A DNA stretch of 64,000 bases from an uncultured Candidatus Kuenenia sp. (lineage in GTDB: Bacteria; Planctomycetota; Planctomycetia; Pirellulales; UBA1268), in contig CAYVNX010000001.1 of assembly GCA_964453165.1 (NCBI GenBank), positions 27,284-91,283 on the forward strand, read 5' to 3'. Below the pieces are notes generated by a model. The model did not search any database. It was not told where the DNA came from and saw nothing but the letters and a program-made list of their open reading frames with translations. A program made the position numbers and the translations under genes. Below, one piece after another: positions 15,001 through 39,765 of the stretch. How positions within the stretch are numbered: the stretch's first letter is position 1; the number at the start of each line of letters is the position of its first letter.

Positions 15001-18000
15001 TCGCCGGGCCGATCGTCAATGAGAGCGTCTTCTTCGATCTGCGCACCTACGAGAACGGTGTGCTCGTCGCTGAACTCGACATCGCCCCGGGGCCCGGTGA
15101 GGCTACGACCACGACCGACTCCCGCGGCGTGTTCAACCTGCCCGACTCGCTGTTGTCGGCCTACGACCAGAATCGCGATGGCTTGGTCGACTTCAGGGAC
15201 GGCATGATCGTGGTCGGGACCTACTCCGACAACGGGGTGGGAACGGTGATCAGCGCGATCGACTCGATCACCGGAGCCGATCTCGGCATTCCTCTCGTGG
15301 GGCTGCCCGGCCACAGCGCGAGCCTCGTCTCGACGCTCAAGTACACGACGCTGCTCCGCTGGCGACCCGACCAAACGATCGCGGGGGTGCCGGTCACTCC
15401 CGAACTGATCGAAACCGTGCTCAGTCGGATCCTCGCCGACGTGCCATCTACGTTCACTGACGACAACTTCTCCCCGTACATCGCCCTCTCGTCATCCGAT
15501 TCGGCCGAGGTGGCCAAGGCGGTGGAGACGCTGCGGTTCTCCTACACGCACCTCGGCAACGTGCTCGCGGTCCGCGCACTGCTCGACGAACTGGGGCTGG
15601 ACTTTGGTCGCGGGAGAGACGTCTGGGGATATGACCCCGATCCCGCGCGAGCCGACCGGGTCGAGGTGATCGCATTCAGTGCCTATCTCAATGCGATCGC
15701 CACGCGGTTCGGAGAGCGGCCGCTCGACGTACTTCACCGGTCGCCCGTGGCCGCGACGTTCGATCCCTTGAATCAGTCCCATGTCCGAGCCGTGTTGGTG
15801 GAGATGCTCTCCAACTATCCAACGAAGCGGCTCTTCGAACTCGAGCCTGCCGTGCTCGCCGAATTCCTCGCTGACCCGCGCGGCGTGGCGGCCGCCTTCC
15901 CCACCCTCGAGGCCCAGTCTCGAGTCGAGGCGGCGATCGAGCGGCACTTCGGCACGCTGCTCGACAACGTCTCGGAGGGGCTCGTGCTCACGCAGAAAGC
16001 CCTCGTCCGCCGAGTCGTCGATGGGGCGGCCTTGAGCGATCTCGCGCCGGCCCTCGGTACCCAACTGCTCGTGCCCAGCGTGGCGGGGCTGAAGCGGCTG
16101 CTCGTCGAGGAGCTCGCGGAGTCGCTCGTGGAGGACGGTTGGCAGAATCGGGACGACTTCCTCGCCGCCTACTATCCGGTCTTCTATCAGCCCAAGCCGG
16201 TCGAGAAGGCGAGCCAGCCGGTGGTCGGACTGATCGGGCTTGCAGTGGCCGGCGGCGACGCGGCCGGCGGCAGCCTGGTGACGCTCGGTGAAGGCGACGA
16301 GATCGTCCGCCTCCAACTCGACTACAAGGACTCGCTCGCCCCGCTCCTTGCGCCCGACTACGGCCTGGCGGTTCGCTACCGGCTCGGCGGCACCGCCCGG
16401 GAGGGCATCGACTACTCGATCGTGGGCAACGGCGGGATTCCGATCGCCTCGATCCGTGCCGGCGAGTCGACCGGAAGCTTGAGCCTGCGGGTGACGCCCG
16501 AGGCGCTCGCAGCCGGAGACCGGTACATCCAGATCGAGCTCCTCTCGGCCGACTCCGGGATGCGGGTCGACGACACCCGCGCAGTGGTCACGATCGCGCT
16601 CGGCGTAGCTGGCCTGCCCCCCGGTGAGGCTCCCACCGGCGGCCGCTCCAGCTTCGTGCCCCACGCGCTCGTCACCGCGACCGGAGCCGGGCCGGCGATC
16701 ATCCGCGCTCCGGCCGGTGGCAGGAACGTCGTGCTCCGCGGGGAGAACGGCCGCGCCGATTTGTTCGTCGTCGGCGATCAGCAGTCCTCCGGAGTCCCCT
16801 TCGTCGAGAACTTCCGCGCGGAGGACGGCGACCGCATCTGGATCGCTGCGGGCGACCTCGTGGCCCATCGACGCAAGAACCTTGTGACCGATCCGACGAA
16901 GCGGGCGGCGGCTCGCGAGGTTCTCGCAGCGCGATATGGCGAGGAACTGGTCTCGGGCTTCGAGCCCGCTCGGCTCGAAGAGCTGATCGCCGCTGAGATC
17001 GAGGCCACGTCGCTCCAGCCGTTCGTGATCACCGAGCTCAATACCTACGGGGGCTTCATCTTCGACGTGGTCGGTCGCAACCCCGTGGCGATGGTGAGCG
17101 ACTATTCGGTCAGCGCAGGGGACAAGGCCTGGGCGTCGCTGAGCATGAACCCGGCGGGCGGGACGGCCTTCGCGACGGTGATCACGCTTTCGAGCATGAG
17201 CGTGGCGGAGGACATAGCGGCGGGTACGAGGGTGGGCGAGGTGTTCGTCCAGTCGCCGGTCGCCGCCGGTGCCTCTCAGGTGACGCTGGCGGCGGGCGAC
17301 GGCGACGATGACAACACCCTCTTCGAGGTCGTCCGGGACGATTCGGGCTCGAGTCCCCGGTCGTTCCTCGTGGCCCGAGGGCCCTTCGATTACGAGACCG
17401 ACCCCCGACTGTCTGTTCGCGTGCGGGCCACCGGAGCCGATGGCGTCGCCTTCGAGCAGGTGTTCGTGCTTCAGGTCGGTGACGTTCCCGAGCAGGTGAT
17501 CGTCGAGGTCGCGGCGTCGGAGTCGGTCGTGCTCGACGCGTTGCTCTGGAGCCGGGATACGCTCGTCGTCCGGGGCGGCGGCCGGGTGATCCTTGACTCG
17601 CCCAATCGCCACACCGGTGGCGTGGTGGTCGAGGCCGGTGAGCTGGTCGTGCGCGACCCGGCTGGCCTCGGGTCAGGGCCGCTCGCGGTCCGCGGTGGGG
17701 CGCGGGTGGTCTTCGATGTCGGATCCGACCTGGTGGCCTTGGCGGCGCTCGACCTGGCTGAGGGAGCCTTGATCGACGTGGGGCTCGGCCGGCTGACGAT
17801 AGCGGCCGGTGGATACGACGCCACGGACCTCCGGGCCTGGATCAGCACCGCCCGAAACGGCGGGGCCTGGGATGGCCCCGGGATCACGAGCGCCGCGGTC
17901 GCTACGACCCCGAACCGGGCGATCGGCCATCGCGTGTTCGCCGACGGTTCGGTGATCGTCGGCTTTGCGGCGATCGGCGATGCCACGATGGACGGCCGCG

Positions 18001-18347: not shown

Positions 18348-18413
18348 GGGGATTGCCGCGCACGCAGACGTGGGACTTCCCTCCTCACCGCTCGTGGGGA
18401 CAATGGGGAGACG

Positions 18414-18755
18414 ATGACGAATTCTCCGCTCGAAATCACCGCCGCCGAGGCCAGCCGGATGCTCCAGGAGGCGGGGGCAGGCGAGTGCCTGCTCCTCGAC
18501 TGCCGCACGCCCGAGGAGCATGCCACCGCCCGGATTCAGGGCGCCTTGCTCATTCCGATGCACGAATTGCCGCAGCGGGTGGGTGAACTCGGCTCCTGGC
18601 AGGCCCGGCAGATCGTCGTGTACTGCCATCATGGCGTCCGCAGCCTTCGCGTGACGCACTGGCTCCGCGAACGCGGCTACGTGCATGTGTCGAGCCTCCG
18701 GGGTGGCATCGAGGCCTGGAGCCTCGACGTCGATCCGCAGGTGCCACGCTATTAA
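18414..18755 (+). CDS. Single-domain rhodanese-like sulfurtransferase
   Basis: 113 aa. Active-site loop VVYCHHGVRS with catalytic Cys; LLDCRTPEEH and GGIEAW are typical of the rhodanese fold; purine-rich ggggaga lies just upstream of the ATG. Confidence 0.85.
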   Translation: MTNSPLEITAAEASRMLQEAGAGECLLLDCRTPEEHATARIQGALLIPMHELPQRVGELGSWQARQIVVYCHHGVRSLRVTHWLRERGYVHVSSLRGGIEAWSLDVDPQVPRY

Positions 18756-18761
18756 ATCGGT

Positions 18762-18780
18762 GGCCGGCAGGCTGCCGGCC
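18762..18780 (+). terminator. GC-rich hairpin 7 nt after the rhodanese stop (possible terminator, no U-tract)
   Basis: ggccggca-ggc-tgccggcc is an 8-bp perfect stem with a 3-nt loop. It lies between convergent genes. Confidence 0.35.
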
Positions 18781-18848
18781 GCTGGCTGGCTGCGTCGGGG
18801 GAAAGCGGGGCAGGCGTTGCCGGCCAGGCGCGGTTCCCCCGGTCTACC

Positions 18849-20537
18849 CTAGAGGCATTTGAGAAATTCGATCAGGGCCATCCGCTCGTCCTCGGTGAGG
18901 CTGTCGCCGAAGGTATGGCCCGTGTTGAGCAGGCCCGTGTAGAGCTCCGGCCGGGAGGGATCGACCTGGGAGGAGGTCACCCCCGCGAGAGCCTGCCGCA
19001 GGGCTTCCCACTGCTCCGGCGTGCGCCACTCCGGGTCAAACACCCTGACATACGTGTCGGCCTCCATCTCCTCGAGGATCTCCGCGTGGGACTTGGCCGA
19101 TTCATCGACAAACTTCCAGCCGACCCGCACCTGATCGAAGTTGTCGGGGTCGATGCTGCTCGGCCGCATGCTGTACTTCTTCGGGCGGGTCGACGATTTC
19201 AGGAGGTTGTAGAGCGTGGGGACCGAGGCGTTGTGGAGGTAGGGGCCGCGGGCCCAGATGCCCGGCAGCGGTGGCGCCACGTAGCTCTTGGTGAGGGTCA
19301 CCTTTCCGCTGAGAAACCGCTTCTTCTCCTCGACGCTCATGTCGAAGATTCCGATGATCCGCAGCGGATCCGTGCCGACCTCCTCCGGCTCGATCAGCGC
19401 CCCGGGGAAGCTGACGAGCTCGTACTGCTTCTCACCGGTTTCCTCGAATTCACCATGGCAGCGGCCGCAGGACTCCTGGAAGATTCTGTGGCCGGCCGTG
19501 GCCTTCTCGGCATCGACCGTGGCAATGAACGGATACCGTGGCGGTTTCAACGATGAGAAGTAGGCAGGGACGCACTTGGCGAACGTCTCCCGGGCCTCGA
19601 CGTAGTCTTCCCCGAGATGCCCGCGGCTGATCGCCATGGCGTAGGTCACGTCGGCGACGTTGCCCTCGAACCCACCGTCGACGTAGAGCCCCTTGCCCTC
19701 GGTGCCGTTGATCTTGTAACCGTAGTTGGTCCACGGCTGCGGCTTGAGAAACGGGATCAGCGGGACCTTCGCCTCCATCTTCTTGGTGTAGCTGTTGGTG
19801 TGGGTGTCGACGAAGAACTTGTCGTACCGCAGGATGCTCGGCTTGATGCCATCGGGCCGCAGCACGGGGACCAGGACGCCGAAGAAGTCAGCCGAGTCGA
19901 CGAAGAACCGCGGCAGGTTCTTCGCGAAAACGTGGCCCGGGCTGGTTTCGCCGCTGGCGGCGACGTTCTGGTGAAACCGCTCGAAGTCGAGAAATACGTT
20001 GGGGATGCCTTCGGCGAGTCGTGGCTCGGGGTTCCTGGGGTCGGGGCTGGTGAACAGGACGGTCGAGTGACAGAGCCGGCAGCTCGCGGTCATGCCCGGG
20101 GCACGCGAGAAGGCGACGGTGGCCTCCGTCTTGAGGAGTCCCAACGCCACCGCATCGGCATGGTGATTGCCGGGCTGCGGGCGATGGATGCCATACCGCA
20201 TGTCCATCTCCCGCCACCAGCCCTCGCTGAACTCGGCCAGTCCCTGCAGCCGCTCCTGCTCCGCCTGGGCCGTGGCCTCCTCGGCCCAGATCTCGTTGAG
20301 CGTCTCCAGGCCGTCGAAGTTCCAGAGCGGCCGCGCCATGCGGAACCGCGTCTCGACCTCCATCTTCCCCGCCTCGACGAGCTCACCCCTGGCGATCAAC
20401 GCCTCCTCCTGCTGCTGTGGCGTCGGCGGCGCGACTGACACCTCGACGCCTCGCAGGGCAGTGGGAAACGACAGTGCTGCTCCGGCCGCGAGCAGCCGGA
20501 GCAGCCGGAGCGTGAGCCCGAACAAGGGAGTTGGCAT
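18849..20537 (-). CDS. Secreted di-heme c-type cytochrome (function unknown)
   Basis: 562 aa. N-terminal hydrophobic signal-like segment LRLLRLLAAGAALSF; two CxxCH heme-c motifs (CRLCH and CGRCH). No closer family assignment is possible by eye. Confidence 0.7.
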   Translation of the reverse strand: MPTPLFGLTLRLLRLLAAGAALSFPTALRGVEVSVAPPTPQQQEEALIARGELVEAGKMEVETRFRMARPLWNFDGLETLNEIWAEEATAQAEQERLQGLAEFSEGWWREMDMRYGIHRPQPGNHHADAVALGLLKTEATVAFSRAPGMTASCRLCHSTVLFTSPDPRNPEPRLAEGIPNVFLDFERFHQNVAASGETSPGHVFAKNLPRFFVDSADFFGVLVPVLRPDGIKPSILRYDKFFVDTHTNSYTKKMEAKVPLIPFLKPQPWTNYGYKINGTEGKGLYVDGGFEGNVADVTYAMAISRGHLGEDYVEARETFAKCVPAYFSSLKPPRYPFIATVDAEKATAGHRIFQESCGRCHGEFEETGEKQYELVSFPGALIEPEEVGTDPLRIIGIFDMSVEEKKRFLSGKVTLTKSYVAPPLPGIWARGPYLHNASVPTLYNLLKSSTRPKKYSMRPSSIDPDNFDQVRVGWKFVDESAKSHAEILEEMEADTYVRVFDPEWRTPEQWEALRQALAGVTSSQVDPSRPELYTGLLNTGHTFGDSLTEDERMALIEFLKCL

Positions 20538-20584
20538 GGGTTACCAGTTGTTTCCGGGGAAAGGATTCGAGAGCGGCCGTGGAG

Positions 20585-21419
20585 TCACCGGGAGCGGGGC
20601 TGCGGCGTCATTGTGGTGTCAGTCAACGGACTCCGTCGACTCAGGGGCGAGGGTGGAACGGTCATGGACATTGCTTCAAGCGGGCGGGTCCTCATGGATG
20701 AGGGCGGGGAGGCAGTGCCCTGCCGTCCTCGCGACGTGGCGGCTGCCCGCCCCGACCGCCACGACGGGGCTTGAAGGTCTCCGTCGTCGTCCGTCCGGAT
20801 GGGTCGGTGGATGTAAAAGGTCAGGGAGCCGCCCTGGCCGAGGACGTAGGCGACCGTGCCCCGGCGGCCGCCGACTTCGTAGGTCAGCAGCCGGCTCGTG
20901 GACGACGGGGACGTGATGCCCACGATCGTCGCGCCGCGAAGTGGCCGCATCGCCGGCCGCAGCGGCTCGGGGCTGGGGATCGACCTGGCCGTCCCACTCC
21001 GTGACCTCGCCATGAAACCCGCCATTGAGATACGGATAGGTCTTGGTGGCGTGATAGTGGTGGTGAGAGTCGTCGGCCCGACCGCAATGGCCTCCGTCCT
21101 CGTCGAGTTCGCCGACGAGGAAGGCGTCTTCGTCGCGGTTGTTGAGCGGATTGAAGATCGGCACCCCGTTGACGGTCGACGCGATCGCTCCTCGCAGGAA
21201 GCGGTTTTCGTAGACGTCGGTGTCGTGGCGGGAACGGGATCGAGCGGAATCCGCCAGGCATTCTCCCCGACATATCGCTGCGGGAGCGGAACCTGCTGCT
21301 CCCAGGCCTTGATGCCCACCATCAGTTGATGCTCCGGCATGCCGCTTGACTCGACGAAGAAGAAGCGGCCGCCGCAAGGATGAGGACGGCGGTGCGAACC
21401 TGCCAGAACGGGGTTGCGA
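20585..21419 (-). pseudogene. YHYH-domain protein gene disrupted by at least two frameshifts and lacking an obvious start/signal peptide
   Basis: Protein-like sequence switches frame twice. Frame of ORF 20585..21340: GGRFFFVESSGMPEHQLMVGIKAWEQQVPLPQRYVGENAWRIPLDPVPA, good down to about 21226. Frame of ORF 20676..21377: DTDVYENRFLRGAIASTVNGVPIFNPLNNRDEDAFLVGELDEDGGHCGRADDSHHHYHATKTYPYLNGGFHGEVTEWDGQVDPQP, about 21224 down to 20969. The first frame then resumes from about 20971 (PEPLRPAMRPLRGATIVGITSPSSTSRLLTYEVGGRRGTVAYVLGQGGSLTFYIHRP). The open frame abuts the zwf stop with no ATG/GTG/TTG before 21340. Confidence 0.55.
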
Positions 21420-23345
21420 TCACGATGGTTCGTTGCCCGCAGCGGTGGGGTGACTCTGGCGACTGGCCGCGATCCGCCGAAACTCGGCCTGCATCTGGGG
21501 GAAATCGTTGGCTATTCGGTGGAAGTCGGCGGCGTCGAGTGCGAGAAGGTCGCAGTGGCAGACGGCTCGGACCGTGGCAGAGCGGGGTTGGTCAAAGAGT
21601 ACTGCCATTTCGCCAAAAAACTCACCCTCCCCAATCCGGCCGACTCGCTCGCCGGCGCGGCCCAGCGCCTCGAGTTCGCCGCGGCAGACGAAATACATCT
21701 CACCGCCTCGGTCTCCCGCTCGGACGACCGTGTCACCCGGACCGAAAGCGAGCGGTCGAAACGCGAGGAGCAGGTTGTTGAGCATGACAGCCGGGGCAGT
21801 CGCCAGAAACTCGCTCCGGGCCAACACGTCGCGGGTCAGGTTCTCATGCCAGCGGCGACCGTCGCGCGCGAGCAGACTGTTGGCCGCCGCCGGTCCCCAG
21901 GTGCCGGCGGCATAGTTGGGGAAGTCGTCGGCGGGTGTGCCACGCCAGGCGTCGAGCATGGGTTGGACGATCTGCCAGGCCGTTTCCACGAAATCGGTGC
22001 GGGAGAACAGGGTTGGGTCGTTGTTGAGCGCCGCGTAGAGGAGCACCTCGTAGCCAGTCCCGCGGGCCGCCTCGAATGTCTCGGCGTAGTCGAACCGCAT
22101 GCCCGCGGGCTGGAGGCGAAACGCGGGGCCGGGTCGCTTGGCATGCATTCGGATCTCGACAGCCTGGTAGGGCTGAATGTGGAAGATCAAGAGATTGGGC
22201 TCGACCGCTGCGGAGCCCGAGGCCGGGGGCCGAAACTGCACGACGATTTCGGTGCCCCGCTTCCAGAGCGACTTTCCCGACCGCAGGTAGATCGGCACCC
22301 CGGCCCAGCGGGCATTGTCGATCTGCAGCCTGATCGCGGCGAAGGTCTCGGTATTCGACACCGGATCGACGTCGCGTTCCTGGCGATAGGCCACGGCCGG
22401 TGAACCGTCGGGCTTCGAGCCCGCGGCATATTGGCCGCGGACGCAGTCGCGGGCGACCGCCGTGGGATCGAGCAGCCGAACCGATTCCAGGAGCCGAGAC
22501 TTTCCGTCGCGAATCGCGGCCGGGTCCAGGGACGTCGGGGGCTCCATGCAGACGTAGGCCAGCATCTGGAGGAGGTGGTTTTGCACCATGTCGCAGACGA
22601 CCCCCGTTCGGTCGTAGTAGCCGCCCCGCGTCTCCACGCCAACCGTTTCGAGCGAGGAGAGCTGGACGTGGTCTATATGGCTGGCGTTCCAGAGCGGTGC
22701 GAACAGCGGGTTGGCCAGCCGAAAGGCTAGGATGTTCTGCACCGTCTCCTTGCCAAGGTAGTGATCGATGCGATAGATCTCGTCCTCCCGCCAGTGGGCC
22801 AGCAGGTCTCGATTGAGACCGATGGCCGAATGCAGATCCTTGCCGAACGGCTTTTCGACGATGATTCGTTTCAGGCCCGGCATCCGCGTGAAGCCTGCCG
22901 CGTCGAGCCGCCGATTCACTTCGGAGAAGAAGTCGGGCGAGATGGCCAGATAGATGAGCGTGTTGCCGGCCGCTCCGGTCTGCTGCCCAACCTCGAGCAC
23001 GAGCCTCATGAGCCGGTCGTAGGCGGCCGGATCGTCGAAGTTGCCCGGCAGGTAGTGGAGTCGCGATTCCAGCCACTGACAGCGGTCCTCGTCGAGGGCC
23101 TTCCGGGTCGTGAATCGGGCGATATCCTGCCGGTGGCGTGCTCGAAACTCGGCGGTGGTCTGCTCTGTCATCGCCATGCCAACGACGGCGAACTCGTCCG
23201 GCAGCAGCCCGTCGCAGGCGAGGTTGTAGAGAGCCGGCATCAGCAGCCGCTTCGTGAGATCGCCCGAGGCTCCGAGAATGACGATCAGCCCCGCCGCGGC
23301 CGTGGACGTTTGCCCGGCCTGGTTGCTGGGGGGTGCCATGGGCAT
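21420..23345 (-). CDS. zwf: Glucose-6-phosphate 1-dehydrogenase fused to a C-terminal cyclic-nucleotide-binding domain
   Basis: 641 aa. G6PD motifs ILGASGDLTKRLL (NADP site), IVEKPFG and YRIDHYLGKE (active-site region). The G6PD part ends near GTWGPAAANSLLARDGRRWHE, followed by about 134 extra residues with cNMP-binding signatures. Confidence 0.9.
   Translation of the reverse strand: MPMAPPSNQAGQTSTAAAGLIVILGASGDLTKRLLMPALYNLACDGLLPDEFAVVGMAMTEQTTAEFRARHRQDIARFTTRKALDEDRCQWLESRLHYLPGNFDDPAAYDRLMRLVLEVGQQTGAAGNTLIYLAISPDFFSEVNRRLDAAGFTRMPGLKRIIVEKPFGKDLHSAIGLNRDLLAHWREDEIYRIDHYLGKETVQNILAFRLANPLFAPLWNASHIDHVQLSSLETVGVETRGGYYDRTGVVCDMVQNHLLQMLAYVCMEPPTSLDPAAIRDGKSRLLESVRLLDPTAVARDCVRGQYAAGSKPDGSPAVAYRQERDVDPVSNTETFAAIRLQIDNARWAGVPIYLRSGKSLWKRGTEIVVQFRPPASGSAAVEPNLLIFHIQPYQAVEIRMHAKRPGPAFRLQPAGMRFDYAETFEAARGTGYEVLLYAALNNDPTLFSRTDFVETAWQIVQPMLDAWRGTPADDFPNYAAGTWGPAAANSLLARDGRRWHENLTRDVLARSEFLATAPAVMLNNLLLAFRPLAFGPGDTVVRAGDRGGEMYFVCRGELEALGRAGERVGRIGEGEFFGEMAVLFDQPRSATVRAVCHCDLLALDAADFHRIANDFPQMQAEFRRIAASRQSHPTAAGNEPS
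21423..21824 (-). other. cNMP-binding (CAP effector-type) domain forming the C-terminus of Zwf
   Basis: FRPLAFGPGDTVVRAGDRGGEMYFVCRGELEAL...RIGEGEFFGEMAVLFDQPRSATVRAVCHCDLLALDAADF carries the classic G.FFGE.AL....PRSATV phosphate-binding cassette. Confidence 0.75.
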
Positions 23346-23552
23346 GGACGGTTCCTGGGATGGAAAAGCCGCGGCGGCCCACGGCCAGGCTGGCGATATG
23401 GCGAATCAGCGTCGCTTTTATACCAGGATGGTGACAGCGACGATCCAGGCTCGGAGTCCTACACGATTGAGTCCGGGGGCGAGATCGGCACGCACACGAT
23501 GGCCCAGGCCACCAGGCAGTGCGGCGGTGCCACAAGCGTGACTCTCCAGGGG

Positions 23553-23581
23553 GTTGACAGGGAGTGAACAGCCGTATAGAT
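23553..23581 (+). promoter_or_regulatory. Sigma-70-like promoter candidate upstream of comM: TTGACA-N17-TAGATT
   Basis: TTGACA at 23553-23558, a 17-nt spacer, TAGATT at 23576-23581, about 60 nt upstream of the ATG at 23642. Same architecture as the site at 29661-29689. Confidence 0.45.
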
Positions 23582-23641
23582 TTAGGAGGTTGGCTGGATG
23601 GCACCACGTCGTCTGCCCGCGCATCTCCGGAGACTGTTGCC

Positions 23642-25189
23642 ATGCTTGCCCGCCTGCACACGTTTTCCCTGTTCGGCATTGATGCGGTGCCGGTGGAGGT
23701 CGAGGTCGATGTTTCCGGGGGGGCGCTGCCGGCGACCGTGCTTGTGGGACTGCCGGATGCGGCGATCCGGGAGAGCACGCACCGGGTCGCCCGGGCGATG
23801 GTGAACTCGGGCTTTACGCGGCCCAACGACCGGATCGTGGTCAATCTCGCCCCGGCGGAATTGCCCAAGCAGGCGGCCACGTTCGACCTTCCGATCACGC
23901 TTGGCATCCTGGCCGGCAGTGGGCAGTTCTCGTCCGAGCGGCTCAAGGATTACGCGGTGATCGGCGAACTCTCGCTCGAGGGCTCGACGCGGCCTGCCCG
24001 AGGAGCGCTCTCGATCGCCATGGCTGCGGCCCGGCAGCGCGGGGAGCGGCCGCTCAGGGGTGTGGTTGTGCCCGCTGCCAGTGCGACGGAGGCGGCGGTG
24101 GTCGAAGACATCGAGGTGATCCCGGTGTCGTCGCTCACCGAAGCCGTGCAGTTCTTCACCGGCGACATCGACATCACGCCGACGCCGGCCCGGGTGGCGG
24201 AGTGGTTCGACCGGTTTGCCACCTACGACATCGACTTCGCCGACGTCCGCGGGCAGGAGGCGGCGAAGCGAGCGATCTGTGTCGCGGCGGCAGGGGGGCA
24301 TAATTGCCTCATGGTCGGCCCGCCCGGCGGAGGCAAGACGATGCTGGCGAAGCGAGTGCCCACGATCCTGCCACAGCTTTCGGCGGTCGAGTCGATCGAG
24401 ACAACGCGGATCTATAGCGCGCTTGGGCTGCTCCAGCCAGGGCAGCCGCTCCTGGCCACGCGGCCGTTTCGGGCGCCGCACCATACGATTTCCGAGGCTG
24501 GCCTCGTGGGCGGCCGATCGATCCCAATGCCGGGTGAAATATCGCTCGCGCATAACGGGGTGCTTTTTTTGGACGAACTTCCCGAGTTCAACCGCCGCAC
24601 GCTCGAGGTGCTGCGGCAGCCGCTGGAAGACGGCTCGGTCACGATCAGCAGGGCCAAGACGACGACGCGGTTTCCGGCCGACTTCATGCTCGTGGCAGCG
24701 CTCAATCCCTGCCCCTGCGGCTATCGCGGCGACCCGCGGCGGCAGTGTCAGTGCTCAGCGCCGCAGGTCGAGAAATACATGGCGAAGATCTCGGGGCCGC
24801 TCGTGGATCGCATCGACATCCATTTGGAGGTGCCAGCCGTACCATTCAGGGAGTTGGCGGCCAAGCGGCCAGGCACGTCGAGCGGGCAGATGCGCGAGGC
24901 GGTGCTGGCGGCGCGGCTGCGGCAGGCCGTGCGGTTTGCGGATTCGGCCACGCGGTCAAACGCCCGAATGAACAGCCGCCAGATCCGGGAGTTCTGCCCG
25001 CTCGACCCGGCGGCAGCCGAGTTGCTGCGGGCTGCCGTGGCCGATCTCGGACTCTCTGCTCGGGCCCACGACAAAGTGCTGCGGGTTGCGCGAACTGTGG
25101 CCGACCTCGATGCGGCCGAGAGCATCGGGGCCGCCCACATCAGCGAGGCGATCAACTACCGGCTGCTCGATCGCGGCTTGTGGGAGTGA
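23642..25189 (+). CDS. comM: YifB/ComM-family Mg-chelatase-like AAA+ ATPase
   Basis: Starts MLARLHTFSLFGIDAVPVEVEVDVSGG..LVGLPDAAIRESTHRV (family-typical N-terminus). Walker A MVGPPGGGKTMLAKR, VLFLDELPEF, C-terminal SARAHDKVLRVARTVADL. The track start GTG 23564 lies upstream of the predicted -10, so ATG 23642 is preferred. Confidence 0.9.
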   Translation: MLARLHTFSLFGIDAVPVEVEVDVSGGALPATVLVGLPDAAIRESTHRVARAMVNSGFTRPNDRIVVNLAPAELPKQAATFDLPITLGILAGSGQFSSERLKDYAVIGELSLEGSTRPARGALSIAMAAARQRGERPLRGVVVPAASATEAAVVEDIEVIPVSSLTEAVQFFTGDIDITPTPARVAEWFDRFATYDIDFADVRGQEAAKRAICVAAAGGHNCLMVGPPGGGKTMLAKRVPTILPQLSAVESIETTRIYSALGLLQPGQPLLATRPFRAPHHTISEAGLVGGRSIPMPGEISLAHNGVLFLDELPEFNRRTLEVLRQPLEDGSVTISRAKTTTRFPADFMLVAALNPCPCGYRGDPRRQCQCSAPQVEKYMAKISGPLVDRIDIHLEVPAVPFRELAAKRPGTSSGQMREAVLAARLRQAVRFADSATRSNARMNSRQIREFCPLDPAAAELLRAAVADLGLSARAHDKVLRVARTVADLDAAESIGAAHISEAINYRLLDRGLWE

Positions 25190-25315
25190 CTCAAGCCGGC
25201 TCAGTGTGCCAGCCAAAAAGTGACGTCGCCCGCTCTGGTGGCGACTCCGCCGACACCCCTTCGGCCCGGGGAATCCCGATGGACGTCGGCTGGGGAGGTT
25301 TGCAACACTACCGGC

Positions 25316-26089
25316 ATGGACCCTCTCACGGCAGACTCCGGAGCGATTGACAGGCCGATCCCTCGGCAGGGCTTCCCGAACGGCTCCCCACGTCGCGGCT
25401 GGTCGGGACCGATGGCAGTGAGGCTCGCCCTCGCTGCCGCGCTTGCCATCATCGGCTGCGTGGCACTGTTCGTCGATCTTCCCGTCGCTGGATGGTTCCG
25501 CACCCATCGCCTGCCGGGGGACCTGGCCCGGCTCGTGGATTTCAGCGAGGTTTTCGCCCATGGGCTCGGCGCTGCCGTCGTGCTCGGTGTCACCGTCTCG
25601 CTCGATATGCGGCTGCGAAAGCTGGGGCAGGTGGCTGCGGCTCGCCGGGATGTGATCCGGCTCTTTCTGGCGGCCTACGCGGGAGGCCTGGTGGTGGATG
25701 TGATCAAGGCGCTCGTTGTCCGGGTGCGGCCACGTTCATGTGACTTTGCCGCGATGCACTCGGCCCTCGACACCTTCGGCGCCGCGGCAGCGGGCATGGT
25801 TTCAGGCATTCCTGCCGAGGGTGGCCTGAGGAAGAGCGTCGAGCTCATGAGCTTCCCCTCGGGCCACGCGGCCGTGGCCGCCGGACTCGCCACGGCGCTG
25901 GCCTGGAAATACCCCCACGGACGCTGGATCTTTGGAGCTCTGGCGGCATGTGCGGCCTTTCAGCGCGTTGCATCGTCGGCCCACTTCCCGAGTGACGTCG
26001 CCTGGGGGGCGGCGATCGGGGTGGCTGCCGCCGCCGTCTGCCTGGCGAGAGTCCAGCCCTCGACGGCGGGCGGCGTTCAGAGCGGCTGA
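25316..26089 (+). CDS. PAP2-family membrane phosphatase (start uncertain: 25220, 25316 or 25403)
   Basis: All three PAP2 motifs are present: KALVVRVRP (KX6RP), FPSGH, and QRVASSAHFPSD (RX5HX3D). Several hydrophobic helices. Confidence 0.75.
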   Translation: MDPLTADSGAIDRPIPRQGFPNGSPRRGWSGPMAVRLALAAALAIIGCVALFVDLPVAGWFRTHRLPGDLARLVDFSEVFAHGLGAAVVLGVTVSLDMRLRKLGQVAAARRDVIRLFLAAYAGGLVVDVIKALVVRVRPRSCDFAAMHSALDTFGAAAAGMVSGIPAEGGLRKSVELMSFPSGHAAVAAGLATALAWKYPHGRWIFGALAACAAFQRVASSAHFPSDVAWGAAIGVAAAAVCLARVQPSTAGGVQSG

Positions 26090-26165
26090 GCGGCTGAGCA
26101 GCGATGGTCGCTCCATGGCAAGCGTGATATCCTAGGCACACTCCGTCGCCCTGGGAAAATCGTTC

Positions 26166-26657
26166 ATGCCCCCCGCCAAGAAGCCCCGCAGTAAGAGCAG
26201 CAAGGCCGTCGCCGCCCCCTCCTCTGAGGCCCACGAATTCGAGCAGTCCGAGCCCGTCGCCCAGACCGCCGACGGCCCCAAGGCCGGCACGCGAGGAAGC
26301 AAGCGGATCCTGCTCGTCGACGATGATCAGGAGATCATCGAGTCGATGAAGACGGTCCTCGAGTCGCGGGGCTACGAGATTCTCGTCGCGCGGGATGGCA
26401 ACCAGGGGCTCGTCATGGCCGAGGGAGAGAGCCCAGACCTCGTCGTGCTCGACATGATGATGCCCAAGCGGAGCGGGTTTCTCGTGCTCGAAAAGCTCCG
26501 CCGCAGCCGCCCGGATCCGCTCCGCGTCATCATGATCACGGCCAACGAAGGAAGCCGGCACCGCGCCTATGCCGAGATGCTGGGCGTGGATGACTATATT
26601 CGGAAGCCGTTCGCCATGGATCGGCTTCTCGATAGCGTCGATCGGCTCCTATCTTGA
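26166..26657 (+). CDS. Single-domain CheY-like response regulator with a basic Lys/Ser/Ala-rich N-terminal tail
   Basis: ILLVDDD, phospho-acceptor LVVLDMMMPKRSG, VIMITA, IRKPF. The first approx 45 aa are MPPAKKPRSKSSKAVAAPSSE... Confidence 0.85.
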   Translation: MPPAKKPRSKSSKAVAAPSSEAHEFEQSEPVAQTADGPKAGTRGSKRILLVDDDQEIIESMKTVLESRGYEILVARDGNQGLVMAEGESPDLVVLDMMMPKRSGFLVLEKLRRSRPDPLRVIMITANEGSRHRAYAEMLGVDDYIRKPFAMDRLLDSVDRLLS

Positions 26658-26716
26658 TGCAGCCGCCGAGCAGATGAGCCGGGGCGTGCGCTGGTGTTCA
26701 TGAGAGGTGCAAAAGC

Positions 26717-29482
26717 ATGGATCAGCTTGGGCGTAGGGCATCGATCTGGACTCCGCGGGCGATGGTGCTCGCAGCGGCCGCGAGCATCGTGGTGGCCGGC
26801 AGGCCGGTCGGGTCCGCTGCTGCCGAGTGGCGGCAGCCCGTCGAGCAGATGCCGCTGGCAACAGACGACGGCGGCGGCGATCAGGCGTTCCGAGTGCCCG
26901 ATGGCTTTGTGGTGGATCGGCTCTTCGTGGTTCCGCGTGAGGAACTCGGCTCCTGGGTTTCGCTTGCGACCGACCCAGCGGGCCGTCTGATTGCCAGCGA
27001 CCAGGCTGACAAGGGGCTCGTGCGGATCACGCCAGCGCCGCTCGATGGAAGCGGCGAGACGGTTGTCGAACGAATTCCCGCTGCGATCACGGGGGCCCAG
27101 GGACTGCTCTGGGCCTTCGATGCGCTGTATGTCGTCTGCAACGGCGGCACCGGCAGCGGTCTCTACCGCCTCACCGACTCCGATGGCGACGACATGCCGG
27201 ACCGGGTGGAGAAACTGCGGGCCTTCGAGGGCGCGGGGGAACACGGGCCGCATGCCATCCGCCTCTCGCCCGACGGAAAAAGGCTGTTCGTCGTCTTCGG
27301 CAATCACACGAAGCTGCCCTTTGACCTGATCGACGAGACGCCGCCCCAGGTCATGGGGGGCATCCGCGCGAACCAGCGGAGGGTGCGGCTCGGGCCCGAC
27401 GGCACGAGCCGACTGCCCTGCAACTGGGACGAGGACGTCGTGGTCCGCCGGATGTGGGACGCCAACGGCCACGCGGCTGGGATTCTCGCCCCGGGTGGCT
27501 TCATCGCCTCGACCGATCCCGAGGGCAAGGGCTGGGAGGTGTGGAGCGCCGGTTACCGGAACGTCTACGACTTCGCCTTCAACGCCGACGGCGAACTCTT
27601 CGCCTACGACGCCGACATGGAGTGGGATCTGGGCTCGCCCTGGTATCGCCCCACGCGGGTCAACCACGCGACCAGCGGAAGCGAACTCGGCTGGCGGAGC
27701 GGCACCGCCAAGTGGCCCGCCTCGTACGGCGATAGCCTGCCCGGCCTCCTCGACATCGGACCGGGGTCGCCGGTGGGGGTCTGCTTCGGCTACGGCAGCC
27801 GGTTTCCTGGCCGCTACCAACGAGCCCTGTACGTCTGCGACTGGACCTTCGGCACGATGTATGCGGTCCACCTGGAGCCCGAGGGCTCGACGTACCGCGG
27901 CACGAAGGAGGAGTTCGTGGCCCGCACGCCCTTGCCGCTGACCGACGTGACCGTCGGCCGCGACGGAGCGATGTATTTCACGGTCGGCGGTCGCGGCGGG
28001 CAGAGCGAACTCTATCGGGTGCGGTATGCCGGCACCGACCCGGTCGCCCCGGTGGACGGCAAGGACGCCAGGGAGGTGGCCGCCCGAGCCACCCGGCGGT
28101 CGCTGGAGATGCTGCATCGTCGGGTGGACGATCCTGCGTCGGCTGTGGCGACGGCATTGCCGCATCTGGCGAGTTCCGATCGCTTCCTTCGCTATGCCGC
28201 CCGGATCGCACTGGAACACCAACCGCTTGCGACGTGGAAGGACGCAGCCCTCAATCATGCCGACCCATCCGCTCGGATCGAGGCGGCGATCGCCGTCGCC
28301 CGACAGGCCGACTCGGACGCGCAGCCAGAGGTGCTCGCGGCCCTCGACTCAGTCGATGGAGCCAGTCTGTCGCCCGAGGATCAGGTGCGGCTCGTGCGGG
28401 CCTGTCAGCTTGCGATCATCCGCCTCGGAGAGCCGCCCGCCGATGTCCGGGCAGCGATCGCGGCCCGGGTAATGCCAGTCTTTCCCACCGGTACAGACGA
28501 TCTCGACCGGGAACTGGCCAGCCTCCTCGCGGCGGTGAGGGCTCCGGGAATCGTGCCGCGTCTCGTCGGCCTGCTCGCCGATCGGGGCACAACGCCACCG
28601 AGCAACATCACGGCCGACGAAGCCGAGGTTCGTTCGCTGATCGAGCGGAATGCCGGCTACGGCGAGGCGGTGCGGGCCGCGCTCGATCGACGGGGCGACA
28701 TGCTCCAGATGCACTACGCCTATGTCTTGCGGGTGCTCCAGGATCAGCCGGATGACAGACTCTGGACGGCCGCCGACCGCAAGGCCTACTTCGCCTGGTT
28801 CAAGCGGGCTCGGGAGTGGGGCGGCGGAAACAGCTTCCAGAAGTTCCTGACGAACATCGAGGACGAGAGCCTGGCGGGGCTCTCTGAGAACGACCGGCTG
28901 GCGCTCGAGGCGCTGGGCGTGCGGGAGCCCTACATTCCCCCGCCGCTGCCGAAGCCCCAGGGGCCGGGGCGCACCTGGTCGGTCGCCGAGGTCATGGCTG
29001 CCACCGAACAGGGGCTCGCTCCGGGCACCCGTAACTTTGCCAAGGGCAAGCAGGCGTTCGCCGCGGCCCGGTGCATCGTCTGCCATCGGTTCGACGGTGA
29101 CGGCGGAGCGACGGGCCCCGACCTGACGCAGGCCGGCGGCCGGTTTCAAGTGAAGGACATGGTCGAGGCGATCGTGGAGCCGAGCCGCGCGGTCTCGGAC
29201 CAATACCGCGCGAGCATTCTCGAACTCACGAGCGGCAAGGTCATTACGGGCCGGATCGTCGCGGAAACCGCAGAGTCGGTGACGGTCGTGGTGGACCCAG
29301 AAAGCGCTGCCACCTGCGTGGAACTTGCCCGCGGCGACATCGAAGCGATTACGCCATCCCCCACCTCGCTGATGCCCGCCGGCCTCCTCGACCAACTCAA
29401 CGAGGACGAGGTGCTCGATCTGCTGGCCTACACCCTCTCCCGTGGCAAGAAGAAGGATCCCCGGTTCCGCCGGGGCCGGTAG
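26717..29482 (+). CDS. PVC-type putative membrane-bound dehydrogenase / HEAT-repeat / C-terminal heme-c-binding protein
   Basis: 921 aa. N-terminal FRVPDGFVVDRLFVVPREELGSWVSLATDPAGRLIASDQ and beta-propeller-like region. C-terminal cytochrome c module with CIVCHRFDGDGGATGPDLT ... SLMPAGLL. This domain pair is, from memory, characteristic of Planctomycetes/Verrucomicrobia. Confidence 0.75.
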   Translation: MDQLGRRASIWTPRAMVLAAAASIVVAGRPVGSAAAEWRQPVEQMPLATDDGGGDQAFRVPDGFVVDRLFVVPREELGSWVSLATDPAGRLIASDQADKGLVRITPAPLDGSGETVVERIPAAITGAQGLLWAFDALYVVCNGGTGSGLYRLTDSDGDDMPDRVEKLRAFEGAGEHGPHAIRLSPDGKRLFVVFGNHTKLPFDLIDETPPQVMGGIRANQRRVRLGPDGTSRLPCNWDEDVVVRRMWDANGHAAGILAPGGFIASTDPEGKGWEVWSAGYRNVYDFAFNADGELFAYDADMEWDLGSPWYRPTRVNHATSGSELGWRSGTAKWPASYGDSLPGLLDIGPGSPVGVCFGYGSRFPGRYQRALYVCDWTFGTMYAVHLEPEGSTYRGTKEEFVARTPLPLTDVTVGRDGAMYFTVGGRGGQSELYRVRYAGTDPVAPVDGKDAREVAARATRRSLEMLHRRVDDPASAVATALPHLASSDRFLRYAARIALEHQPLATWKDAALNHADPSARIEAAIAVARQADSDAQPEVLAALDSVDGASLSPEDQVRLVRACQLAIIRLGEPPADVRAAIAARVMPVFPTGTDDLDRELASLLAAVRAPGIVPRLVGLLADRGTTPPSNITADEAEVRSLIERNAGYGEAVRAALDRRGDMLQMHYAYVLRVLQDQPDDRLWTAADRKAYFAWFKRAREWGGGNSFQKFLTNIEDESLAGLSENDRLALEALGVREPYIPPPLPKPQGPGRTWSVAEVMAATEQGLAPGTRNFAKGKQAFAAARCIVCHRFDGDGGATGPDLTQAGGRFQVKDMVEAIVEPSRAVSDQYRASILELTSGKVITGRIVAETAESVTVVVDPESAATCVELARGDIEAITPSPTSLMPAGLLDQLNEDEVLDLLAYTLSRGKKKDPRFRRGR

Positions 29483-39293: not shown

Positions 39294-39446
39294 GGCGAAA
39301 CTCGTGATGGGAGACGGATCGGGCGGAGGCAGTGCAGCAGCGGCGATTCGTGGACATCGGACGGCGGGCCGCCCCATGTCCACGCCAGCTGGTTTCGCGG
39401 TAGGATACCGGTTCGTTTCCAACCGGGCCATGAGGGGCAGTTCACC

Positions 39447-39719: not shown

Positions 39720-39765
39720 GCGACACCGTCCCGGGAGGACGGGGGCGACCAGAGGAGACCGAGTC

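What the first reader, a model, noticed from the sequence alone, without database searches (positions are those of the whole stretch)
21420..23345. Glucose-6-phosphate dehydrogenase fused in frame to a cyclic-nucleotide-binding domain
Seen: a complete Zwf (GASGDLTKR, EKPFG, RIDHYLGKE, ending ...GTWGPAAANSLLARDGRRW) continues without a stop into approx 134 aa. This tail carries the cNMP phosphate-binding cassette (GEGEFFGEMAVLFDQPRSATVRA) and a beta-roll pattern (21423-21824). Established: CAP-effector domains confer cAMP/cGMP-dependent regulation. Bacterial G6PDs are normally approx 490-510 aa without such a domain, as far as I know. Inference: direct second-messenger control of entry into the oxidative pentose-phosphate/ED route, an uncommon architecture worth testing.
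Basis: partly seen in the sequence, partly recalled or inferred. Interest (0 to 1): 0.55.

Follow-up and report, generated by a model that had tools for sequence, protein, structure and literature searches.

The report
G6PD fused to cyclic-nucleotide sensor
This bacterial glucose-6-phosphate dehydrogenase has a cyclic-nucleotide-binding domain fused, with almost no linker, to the end of the enzyme that other organisms use as an allosteric control site; the fusion is real and conserved in hundreds of uncultured bacteria from several phyla, but no paper I could search has tested what the messenger does to the enzyme.

Summary
Window 21420-23345 (-) is one uninterrupted 641-aa ORF with G6PD_N (E 2.4e-57), G6PD_C (2.7e-102) and cNMP_binding (1.2e-19, 70.5 bits against a cut-off of 27.5). 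It is not an assembly artefact. Six independent assemblies give 641-aa products at 90% identity or more. A MAG with 91-95% nucleotide identity carries the same gene, and 53 reference-genome loci carry uninterrupted fused ORFs.

The fusion is not a one-off. All 240 best database hits (two searches) are fused. Carriers are labelled Planctomycetota, Myxococcota, Methylomirabilota, Acidobacteriota, Verrucomicrobiota and Proteobacteria. All fused proteins form one clade with a junction free of gaps, which points to a single fusion event.

The catalytic residues and the cNMP phosphate-binding cassette (G578, E579, R588, A590) are invariant. The sensor starts five or fewer residues after the enzyme's natural C-terminus. 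That is where OpcA docks on cyanobacterial G6PDH and where human G6PD binds structural NADP+.

Most likely mechanism (inferred): cAMP or cGMP binding allosterically tunes G6PD. The direction is unknown. The window enzyme also lacks the NADP+-discriminating Arg (Met59). I found no conserved neighbours, no cyclase in the window and no literature on the fusion. Verdict: a new variant of a known kind, moderately interesting and directly testable.

The parts
21420..23345 (-). Complete zwf-CNB coding sequence (641 codons plus stop)
   Evidence: identical in length to five other members of its 90% cluster
22734..23282 (-). G6PD N-terminal Rossmann (coenzyme-binding) domain, residues 22-204, including GASGDLTKR (23247-23273) and EKPFG (22842-22856)
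   Evidence: PF00479 E 2.4e-57; motif coordinates verified
23169..23171 (-). Met59 codon, at the beta2-alpha2 loop position of the NADP+ 2'-phosphate-binding Arg (E. coli R50, human R72)
   Evidence: Pairwise alignment to human G6PD (the human sequence was verified against PDB 6e08). Arg in 117 of 144 unfused representatives; Met/Leu in the window's close relatives. Role of the Arg from PMC4807051 and PMC8546961
21846..22730 (-). G6PD C-terminal beta+alpha domain, residues 206-500, including RIDHYLGKE (22746-22772) and catalytic His257 (22575-22577)
   Evidence: PF02781 E 2.7e-102; catalytic residues invariant in all fused proteins
22155..22265 (-). Residues 361-397: beta-strands carrying residues conserved only in the fused family (W361, G364, F388, H389, Q394, E397). 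G364, H389 and E397 align with human K366, R393 and Y401 of the structural-NADP+ site
   Evidence: Enrichment at the exact site positions P=0.023; not significant at +/-3 residues
21831..21866 (-). Junction RDGRRWHENLTR (residues 494-505): the natural G6PD C-terminus running straight into the CNB domain, with no gaps in any fused homologue. W499 and E501 are invariant
   Evidence: Solved unfused enzymes end 1-4 residues after the Trp. pLDDT 84-89 across the junction
21453..21830 (-). Cyclic-nucleotide-binding domain, residues 506-631: N-terminal helices, beta-roll (530-604), alphaB (605-614) and alphaC (616-631)
   Evidence: PF00027 E 1.2e-19. Aligns to the SthK CNBD over tail residues 7-131, E 6.6e-25. 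AF2 secondary structure, pLDDT about 90
21564..21617 (-). Phosphate-binding cassette FGEMAVLFDQPRSATVRA (residues 577-594)
   Evidence: G578, E579, L583, R588 and A590 are invariant in 91 of 91 fused sequences. Aligns without gaps to PKG cassettes

Best explanation
The gene encodes a catalytically competent glucose-6-phosphate dehydrogenase whose natural C-terminus continues, with a linker of five residues or fewer, into a ligand-competent cyclic-nucleotide-binding (CNB) domain. The C-terminal segment of G6PD forms part of the enzyme's known allosteric site. OpcA docks there on the cyanobacterial enzyme, and human G6PD holds its structural NADP+ there.

I propose that the CNB domain is a built-in, cis-acting allosteric regulator. 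Binding of cAMP (less likely cGMP) to the phosphate-binding cassette would reposition the CNB N-terminal helices and the alphaB/alphaC lid, as in other CNB proteins. Because those helices join the G6PD C-terminus directly, the movement would pass to the beta-sheet and C-terminal surface and on to the G6P site and/or the dimer-tetramer equilibrium. This would raise or lower entry of glucose-6-phosphate into the oxidative pentose-phosphate / Entner-Doudoroff routes.

Shown: the architecture, its conservation, its single origin, intact catalytic and ligand-binding residues, and the position of the junction. Inferred: that a cyclic nucleotide binds, that binding changes activity, and the route of transmission. 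Unknown: the sign of the effect and the identity of the nucleotide. In the window's own lineage the enzyme also lacks the Arg that discriminates NADP+ from NAD+, so the regulated output may be NADH or mixed NAD(P)H rather than strictly NADPH.
For: Architecture and integrity.

Not an artefact.

Conserved family: all 120 best hits to the window protein and all 120 best hits to a 51%-identical Polyangiaceae member carry PF00479+PF02781+PF00027. Fused ORFs occur in MAGs labelled Planctomycetota, Methylomirabilota, Myxococcota, Acidobacteriota, Verrucomicrobiota and Gamma/Betaproteobacteria.

Single origin: there is one full-length fused representative at 50% clustering. In a neighbour-joining tree the 126 fused proteins fall on one side of a split together with only a frameshifted fused protein and one unfused relative. 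The junction has no gaps.

Catalytic competence: K165, D194, H195, K199 and H257 are invariant.

Ligand competence: G574, G578, E579, L583, R588 and A590 are invariant in 91 of 91 sequences. The best solved relatives of the tail are cGMP- and cAMP-binding domains of PKG, SthK, PKA RI-alpha, MloK1 and HCN. The nearest non-G6PD genomic relatives are C-terminal CNB modules of K+ channels and other C-terminal CNB fusions.

Coupling: unfused solved G6PDs end 1-4 residues after the conserved DGRxW. OpcA contacts the C-terminal loops and Arg505/Arg508 of Synechocystis G6PDH, a surface its authors equate with the human structural-NADP+ site (PMC11648896). E501 at the joint is invariant in fused proteins and variable or absent in unfused ones. 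Fused-specific conserved residues G364, H389 and E397 occupy the positions of human K366, R393 and Y401 (P=0.023). The AF2 model has pLDDT 87.3 and pTM 0.86, with the junction at 84-89, which argues against a floppy tether.
Against: There is no biochemical data of any kind. The enrichment of fused-specific residues at structural-site positions is post hoc and weak (P=0.023), and it vanishes when widened to +/-3 residues (P=0.15). No adenylate or guanylate cyclase lies in the 64-kb window or next to the gene in three other genomes, so no genomic link to a messenger source was found. The neighbour-joining tree has no bootstrap support values. The residue after the cassette Arg varies (T/S/N/A), so nucleotide specificity cannot be read from sequence. 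The top PDB sequence hits are cGMP-binding PKG domains while the prokaryotic ones are cAMP-gated channels.
Confidence: 0.6

Rival explanations
1. The CNB domain is a ligand-independent structural module, like the CNB-homology domains of KCNH channels. It would stabilise the G6PD dimer or tetramer in place of structural NADP+ or OpcA, without sensing any messenger.
For: It sits at the site that stabilises oligomers in human and cyanobacterial G6PD. Nine of the eleven published human structural-NADP+ contact residues could be aligned to the window protein. None is retained and only K403->R399 is conservative, so something else may fill that role. The confident AF2 junction suggests a fixed packing.
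Against: The residues that contact the cyclic phosphate and ribose (G578, E579, R588, A590) are invariant across two subclades that differ at about 50% of positions. That is hard to explain without selection for ligand binding. From my own knowledge, ligand-free CNB-homology domains have lost these residues.
Confidence: 0.12
2. The domain senses a ligand other than cAMP or cGMP (for example another nucleotide or a metabolite), as some CRP/FNR-type domains do. G6PD would then be controlled by that signal.
For: Nothing in the window or neighbouring loci links the gene to a cyclase. [quoted passage not shown]
Against: This cassette is the canonical one, not a divergent one. It aligns without gaps and with about 60% identity to functional PKG cassettes. 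The nearest relatives are cyclic-nucleotide-gated channel modules.
Confidence: 0.1
3. A cyclic nucleotide binds, but the output is not catalytic rate. The domain would control partner binding, localisation or turnover of G6PD.
For: The alphaB/alphaC lid is solvent-exposed in many CNB proteins and can recruit partners (my own knowledge). Apart from an unstructured tail (residues 632-641, pLDDT below 50 from residue 634), nothing follows alphaC, so no extra segment is available to reach the active site.
Against: The near-zero, gap-free linker and the junction residues conserved only in fused proteins (E501) point to tight mechanical coupling with the enzyme core rather than a free docking module. 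No conserved neighbouring gene suggests a partner.
Confidence: 0.1
4. The fusion is an artefact: two adjacent genes joined by a sequencing or assembly error or a missed stop codon.
For: A few public loci do show interrupted versions (L011, L017, L024, L057, L059-L061, L065; P0242 is frameshifted). Indel errors therefore exist in such MAGs.
Against: Six independent assemblies give 641-aa products at 90% identity or more. There are 53 uninterrupted fused ORFs in species-representative genomes and 240 of 240 top hits are fused. No ribosome-binding spacer or separate start exists, because the CNB begins five or fewer residues after the G6PD end.
Confidence: 0.01

Closest known systems
Canonical bacterial Zwf / G6PD (TIGR00871; solved examples: Synechocystis 9emm/9emn, Zymomonas mobilis 7xhl, Leuconostoc mesenteroides 1dpg)
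   Same: Residues 15-500 align end to end (9emm E 3.2e-131). Foldseek TM about 0.9 normalised to the target. All catalytic and substrate motifs are present.
   Different: These enzymes stop 1-4 residues after DGRxW. The window protein continues for 142 more residues into a CNB domain. Met59 replaces the NADP+-discriminating Arg, and Leu34 replaces a Lys found in 109 of 143 unfused representatives.
OpcA-regulated cyanobacterial G6PDH (PMC11648896)
   Same: Allosteric control is exerted at the C-terminal loops and extreme C-terminus of G6PDH (Arg505, Arg508). That is the surface to which the CNB domain is covalently attached here.
   Different: OpcA is a separate 52-kDa redox-sensing protein acting in trans. 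Here the putative regulator is a 14-kDa CNB fold in cis and would sense a nucleotide messenger rather than thiol redox state. No opcA-like gene was seen in the window.
Human G6PD structural-NADP+ site
   Same: The same surface of the beta+alpha domain. Three of the nine alignable site positions carry residues conserved specifically in the fused family.
   Different: None of the nine alignable contact residues is retained (only K403->R399 is conservative), so a structural NADP+ is unlikely. The regulator is a protein domain rather than a dinucleotide.
Mycobacterial cAMP-regulated protein acetyltransferase Pat (NF058543; Rv0998 / MSMEG_5458)
   Same: A bacterial enzyme covalently fused to a CNB domain. 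The window tail gives a weak match to the CNB part of that model (E 2.5e-06). From my own knowledge, cAMP relieves autoinhibition in Pat; this is the functional precedent.
   Different: In Pat the CNB is N-terminal and the catalytic domain is a GNAT. The score (26.6 bits) is far below the family cut-off of 460. This is an analogy of design, not membership.
Prokaryotic cyclic-nucleotide-gated K+ channels SthK / MloK1
   Same: These are the closest prokaryotic CNB domains (SthK CNBD 4d7s/4d7t, E 6.6e-25 over tail residues 7-131; MloK1 about 1e-16). The nearest genomic non-G6PD relatives are Ion_trans+CNB proteins. The CNB is C-terminal in both cases.
   Different: The output domain is a membrane pore rather than a soluble dehydrogenase.
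Other natural G6PD fusions (G6PD::6PGL of Trichomonas, Giardia and Plasmodium; H6PD / GDH-6PGL, 8em2)
   Same: G6PD tolerates extra domains fused to it (PMC7402283; 8em2 hit).
   Different: Those fusions add the next pathway enzyme (lactonase), not a signalling sensor.

Membership tests
Glucose-6-phosphate dehydrogenase (Zwf; PF00479+PF02781, TIGR00871) | Full-length profile match above curated cut-offs | tested here: met
   TIGR00871 533.6 bits against 400.6; PF00479 195 bits against 22.1; PF02781 342 bits against 27
Glucose-6-phosphate dehydrogenase (Zwf; PF00479+PF02781, TIGR00871) | Dinucleotide-binding fingerprint GxxGDLxx(R/K), substrate motifs EKPFG and RIDHYLGKE, and the catalytic His (human H263) with Asp (human D200) | tested here: met
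   GASGDLTKR 25-33, EKPFG 164-168, RIDHYLGKE 192-200, H257, D194. All invariant in the fused family
Glucose-6-phosphate dehydrogenase (Zwf; PF00479+PF02781, TIGR00871) | G6PD fold | tested here: met
   AF2 model pLDDT 87.3. Foldseek 1e77/9emm/7xhl E about 1e-50, TM 0.87-0.92 normalised to the target
Glucose-6-phosphate dehydrogenase (Zwf; PF00479+PF02781, TIGR00871) | G6P-dependent NAD(P)+ reduction | not testable with these tools
   Requires an enzyme assay
NADP+-specific G6PD subclass | Arg in the beta2-alpha2 loop that binds the 2'-phosphate (E. coli R50, human R72) | tested here: not met
   Met59 in the window protein. Arg in 117 of 144 unfused representatives. Criterion from PMC4807051 and PMC8546961
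Cyclic-nucleotide-binding domain (PF00027, CAP/PKA-R type) | Profile match above the gathering score | tested here: met
   70.5 bits against 27.5, E 1.2e-19, profile positions 4-87 of 89
Cyclic-nucleotide-binding domain (PF00027, CAP/PKA-R type) | Phosphate-binding cassette with Gly-Glu (ribose 2'-OH) and Arg-x-Ala (cyclic phosphate) | tested here: met
   F577-G-E-M-A-V-L-F-D-Q-P-R588-S-A-T-V-R-A. G578, E579, R588 and A590 are invariant in 91 of 91
Cyclic-nucleotide-binding domain (PF00027, CAP/PKA-R type) | Beta-roll flanked by N-terminal helices and a C-terminal alphaB/alphaC hinge-lid | tested here: met
   AF2/DSSP: helices 505-528, seven DSSP-assigned strands spanning 530-604, helices 605-614 and 616-631, pLDDT about 90
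Cyclic-nucleotide-binding domain (PF00027, CAP/PKA-R type) | Measured binding of cAMP or cGMP | not testable with these tools
   Requires ITC, DSF or a co-crystal
CRP/FNR transcription factors | C-terminal helix-turn-helix DNA-binding domain after the CNB domain | tested here: not met
   The protein ends 10 residues after alphaC. No HTH family appears in the Pfam scan. The CRP model scores 28.5 bits against a cut-off of 266
OpcA-dependent G6PDH system | An opcA gene accompanying zwf | tested here: not met
   No OpcA-family hit among about 30 window ORFs, and none in three other fused loci. The rest of the genome was not available
cAMP-regulated enzyme of the Pat type (design analogy only) | Catalytic activity changes on cAMP binding to a covalently fused CNB domain | not testable with these tools
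   The covalent fusion is shown. The response is untested

The most novel reading that the evidence does not exclude
The CNB domain is a cis-acting functional replacement for OpcA or structural NADP+. That would make G6PD itself a direct cyclic-nucleotide effector in Planctomycetota, Myxococcota, Methylomirabilota and others. As far as I could find, it would be the first central-carbon dehydrogenase gated directly by cAMP or cGMP in bacteria, bypassing transcription (CRP) and phosphorylation. In the window's lineage and most of the second subclade the NADP+-discriminating Arg is lost, so the messenger might control how much NADH versus NADPH glucose-6-phosphate oxidation yields.
Probability: 0.4. 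Interest if true: 0.65.

Novelty: new variant of a known kind. Interest (0 to 1): 0.5.

Why it matters
G6PD is the committed step of the oxidative pentose-phosphate and Entner-Doudoroff routes and a major source of reducing power. Its known controls are product inhibition, thiol redox state (plants, and cyanobacteria via OpcA), structural NADP+ (animals) and kinase signalling.

A G6PD with its own cyclic-nucleotide sensor would add a direct post-translational link from second messenger to flux in bacteria, in phyla whose cAMP/cGMP biology is almost unexplored. The sensor sits on the same surface used by OpcA and structural NADP+. The protein would therefore also be a natural experiment on how that allosteric site transmits to the active site, which bears on human G6PD deficiency and on small-molecule activators.

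It is cheap to test: one soluble protein, a spectrophotometric assay and commercially available ligands. If the messenger has no effect, the family still shows that this surface of G6PD has been recruited for regulation or stabilisation at least three separate times.

Tried and rejected
1. Contact analysis of the AF2 model: the coordinates and PAE are not exposed to the sandbox, so the CNB-core interface could not be read directly.

2. Conserved gene neighbourhood: four fused loci with Pfam-annotated gene calls share no neighbours. None has an adjacent cyclase, pgl, gnd, edd/eda or opcA.

3. Cyclase in the window: about 30 GC3-filtered ORFs were scanned against Pfam and none matched PF00211.

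4. My first reading of the cofactor position was wrong. After I assigned the loss of Arg59 to the whole Pirellulales-type subclade. Raw segments show that most of that subclade keeps Arg. The loss is in the window's own close relatives and in most of the second subclade. This is corrected in the notebook.

5. Enrichment of fused-specific residues near the structural-NADP+ site: significant only for the exact positions (P=0.023) and not for +/-3 residues (P=0.15). I treat it as weak support.

6. I suspected a YHYH-type frameshifted gene just downstream (20585-21377). Neither frame hits any Pfam family, so I dropped the idea.

7. The Biopython distance/NJ run timed out. I replaced it with a numpy NJ on Kimura-corrected p-distances, without bootstrap.

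8. Literature: seven full-text searches and the CNB census paper PMC2246266 gave no description of a G6PD-CNB fusion. Subscription-only papers are not covered.

9. The promoter/terminator scan of 21200-23700 found nothing above shuffle expectation.
Full report
**1. Observation**

The window carries one uninterrupted ORF at 21420-23345 on the minus strand: 641 aa, ATG start, no internal stop, and an in-frame stop 20 codons upstream.

Pfam gives three domains:
- G6PD_N, residues 22-204, E 2.4e-57
- G6PD_C, residues 206-500, E 2.7e-102
- cNMP_binding, residues 534-613, E 1.2e-19, 70.5 bits against a gathering score of 27.5

NCBIfam's zwf equivalog scores 533.6 bits against a cut-off of 400.6.

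**2. Not an artefact**

- The window protein's 90%-identity cluster has six 641-aa members from six different assemblies (Logan, ENA, NCBI).
- Locus L001, from an independently assembled lake MAG, is syntenic with window 15812-28965 at 91-95% nucleotide identity and contains the same ORF.
- Of 65 reference-genome loci examined, 55 have an ORF spanning the whole match. 53 of these carry both the G6PD and the cassette motifs.
- The few interrupted copies look like local indel errors. P0242, for example, runs into an Arg-rich out-of-frame tail.

**3. Distribution**

The 120 best hits to the window protein (67-100% identity, 611-668 aa) all carry the three Pfam domains. So do the 120 best hits to a 51%-identical Polyangiaceae member.

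In one-genome-per-species contigs, full-length fused matches come from MAGs labelled Pirellulales/Planctomycetia (64-94%). At about 50% identity they also come from other Planctomycetota, Methylomirabilota/Rokubacteria, Myxococcota (Polyangiaceae, Kofleriaceae, Sandaracinaceae), Acidobacteriota, Akkermansiaceae, Rhodocyclaceae, Thiogranum and Pseudomonadales. MAG labels are not all reliable. Several 67%-GC lake MAGs are titled 'Candidatus Kuenenia stuttgartiensis', and one record is labelled Clostridia.

All named members are annotated simply as 'glucose-6-phosphate dehydrogenase'. All those I saw are from metagenome-assembled genomes.

**4. One origin**

An exhaustive HMMER search of 1.84 billion 50%-identity representatives returned one full-length fused representative (P0241, 657 aa, 54% identity, query 16-629) and two fused fragments. 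Nearly all the other top hits are ordinary 480-530-aa G6PDs at 37-53% identity. 3841 clusters have E<=1e-30.

In a neighbour-joining tree of the G6PD portion (270 sequences, 478 columns), all 126 fused sequences fall on one side of a split. The only others on that side are the frameshifted P0242 and one genuinely unfused 498-aa relative, P0243. No bootstrap was run.

Two deep subclades exist. Mean corrected distance is 0.26-0.28 within each, 0.63 between them, and at least 0.76 to unfused enzymes. The junction has no insertion or deletion in any member...RDGRRW[H/F]E[V/I/L/C][L/V]-[T/N/S]-x-[D/E]-V-L....

**5. Both halves look functional**

The catalytic and substrate residues (human K171, D200, H201, K205, H263 = window K165, D194, H195, K199, H257) are invariant in the fused family.

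In the CNB part, G574, G578, E579, L583, R588 and A590 are invariant in 91 of 91 aligned sequences. The alphaC residue R629 is also invariant. G578/E579 and R588/A590 are the cassette residues that hold the ribose 2'-OH and the cyclic phosphate in CNB domains (established knowledge of the family).

The tail's best solved relatives are ligand-binding domains of PKG, the cAMP-gated channel SthK (E 6.6e-25 over nearly the whole domain), PKA RI-alpha, MloK1 and HCN. Its nearest non-G6PD genomic relatives are C-terminal CNB modules of K+ channels. Others are CNB fusions to NDH-2, a Na+/H+ exchanger, an ABC transporter and MscS.

There is no DNA-binding domain, so this is not a CRP/FNR regulator.

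**6. Where the sensor is attached**

Solved unfused G6PDs end one to four residues after the conserved DGRxW (Synechocystis ...DGRRWR plus 2; Zymomonas ...DGVTWYD plus a few). Here Pfam G6PD_C ends at residue 500 and the SthK-like alignment begins at 506, so the linker is five residues or fewer.

[quoted passage not shown] Those arginines lie within the G-R-R-W-R stretch that aligns with window residues 497-501. The exact numbering offset of the tagged PDB chain is uncertain by about one residue.

E501 at the joint is invariant in fused proteins and variable or missing in unfused ones.

I compared 126 fused with 143 unfused sequences. 36 positions are at least 93% conserved in fused proteins and at most 25% shared by unfused ones. 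After aligning to human G6PD (my recalled sequence matched PDB 6e08 at 515 of 515 positions), G364, H389 and E397 coincide with K366, R393 and Y401. These are three of the eleven published structural-NADP+ contacts (PMC7402283; mapping). That is more than expected by chance (hypergeometric P=0.023). The test is post hoc, however, and loses significance when widened to +/-3 residues (P=0.15).

The AF2 model is confident (pLDDT 87.3, pTM 0.86; CNB about 90; junction blocks 84-89), consistent with a fixed rather than floppy arrangement. I could not inspect coordinates or PAE. Foldseek finds only the about 490-residue G6PD core in the PDB, and no solved structure contains both parts.

**7. Mechanism**

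Best explanation (confidence about 0.6): cAMP or cGMP binds the CNB domain. The resulting movement of its N-terminal helices and alphaB/alphaC lid passes through the near-zero linker to the C-terminal allosteric surface of G6PD. That changes substrate affinity, turnover or oligomeric state.

- Shown: the architecture, the conservation, and the junction position.
- Inferred: ligand binding, coupling, and the route of transmission.
- Unknown: the sign of the effect and the identity of the nucleotide.

cAMP is favoured only because the closest prokaryotic relatives are cAMP-gated channels (my own knowledge for SthK and MloK1) and because bacteria mostly make cAMP. The residue after the cassette Arg varies (T/S/N/A) and is not diagnostic.

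Rivals are a ligand-independent stabilising module (0.12), a different ligand (0.10), an output other than catalysis (0.10) and an artefact (0.01).

**8. Cofactor side-finding**

The Arg that binds the NADP+ 2'-phosphate (E. coli R50, human R72) is Met59 here. E. coli K18 is Ser27. The Lys equivalent to E. coli K25 / human K47 is Leu34 in 100% of fused proteins, against Lys in 109 of 143 unfused ones.

Arg59 is present in 117 of 144 unfused representatives and in 41 of 47 sampled Pirellulales-type fused proteins. It is replaced by Met/Leu in the window's closest relatives (at least 75% identity). It is Arg in only 9 of 78 members of the second subclade; hydrophobic residues (Met, Phe, Leu, Ile, Val) replace it in 62, usually followed by Asp.

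Published mutagenesis and comparative work treat absence of this Arg as loosened NADP+ discrimination or NAD+ preference (PMC4807051; PMC8546961). The window enzyme may therefore use NAD+ or both cofactors. This is an inference.

**9. Context**

The gene is solitary. It is transcribed divergently from a YifB/ComM-type Mg-chelatase-like ATPase (23564-25189). A hypothetical ORF and a RoxA-like cytochrome c follow it. The rest of the window is housekeeping: dnaG, rpoD, greA, murB/murC-like, ispG, miaB-like, HtrA proteases and FtsK. No cyclase, phosphodiesterase, pgl, gnd, edd/eda or opcA was found. Three other fused loci have entirely different neighbours.

**10. Novelty and verdict**

Automated pipelines already record the three Pfam domains on these proteins, so the sequence family is public. 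Seven full-text searches and the CNB-domain census (PMC2246266) gave no description or test of a G6PD-CNB fusion. Literature behind paywalls is not covered.

I class it as a new variant of a known kind: a known enzyme plus a known sensor in an undescribed combination, attached at a known allosteric site. Interest is 0.5. A specialist would find it noteworthy rather than astonishing. It is widespread and cleanly testable, but the function remains inferred and the finding comes from a routine domain scan.

Noticed in passing
window 33-18347 (+): A giant 6104-aa ORF with coding-like composition (GC3 0.88) and no Pfam family at E<=1e-3 in either half. It fills more than a quarter of the window. 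The close relative L081 also carries a long unannotated gene, cut off at its contig end.
   Followed up: partly
window 23169-23171 (-) (Met59) and 23244-23246 (-) (Leu34): The window G6PD lacks the Arg that discriminates NADP+ (Met59) and a nearby Lys (Leu34). Published criteria class such enzymes as NAD+-preferring or dual-cofactor. The Arg loss is shared with the closest relatives and most of the second fused subclade, but not with most Pirellulales-type fused proteins.
   Followed up: partly
L072:3074-4669, L074:4717-6312 (Chlamydiota MAGs): A type II NADH dehydrogenase (Pyr_redox_2 + NDH2_C) carrying a C-terminal cNMP_binding domain. I scanned the L072 ORF. L074 has an ORF of the same 532-aa length, and L074 and L075 match the same tail residues. 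This is another redox enzyme fused to a cyclic-nucleotide sensor. A Na+/H+ exchanger with two CNB domains (L073), an ABC transporter+CNB (L078) and MscS+CNB (L079) were also seen.
   Followed up: no
window 20585-21377 (-): Just downstream of zwf, two overlapping minus-strand ORFs (251 and 233 aa) each look protein-like over part of their length. Neither hits Pfam. This is the only stretch where the 91-95% identical relative L001 shows indels. It may be a fast-evolving hypothetical gene, a pseudogene or local indel errors.
   Followed up: partly
L001, L009-L012, L020 (record titles): Lake MAG records titled 'Candidatus Kuenenia stuttgartiensis' or 'Candidatus Kuenenia sp.' carry Pirellulales-like fused zwf genes at 70-94% identity to the window. 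L001, the one I measured, has 67.5% GC and is syntenic with the window. The organism label looks wrong.
   Followed up: no
window 18849-20537 (-) and 18348-18755 (+): A RoxA-like di-haem cytochrome c (562 aa, PF21419) and a small rhodanese-domain protein lie between the giant ORF and zwf. The same pair flanks the gene in L081.
   Followed up: no
window 38433-39872 (-): A 479-aa ORF whose C-terminal about 200 residues match chlorite dismutase / HemQ-type PF06778 (E 2.9e-50), with a long unannotated N-terminal extension.
   Followed up: no
P0289 (representative library hit): A 1011-aa protein that matches the CNB tail in eight separate stretches. It appears to be built almost entirely of tandem CNB domains.
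   Followed up: no
P0243 (representative library hit): A 498-aa unfused G6PD that groups inside or next to the fused clade. It ends ...DGRRWVKITKPATVGQGPARS and has an internal deletion. It could be a secondary loss of the CNB domain or the closest surviving unfused lineage.
   Followed up: partly
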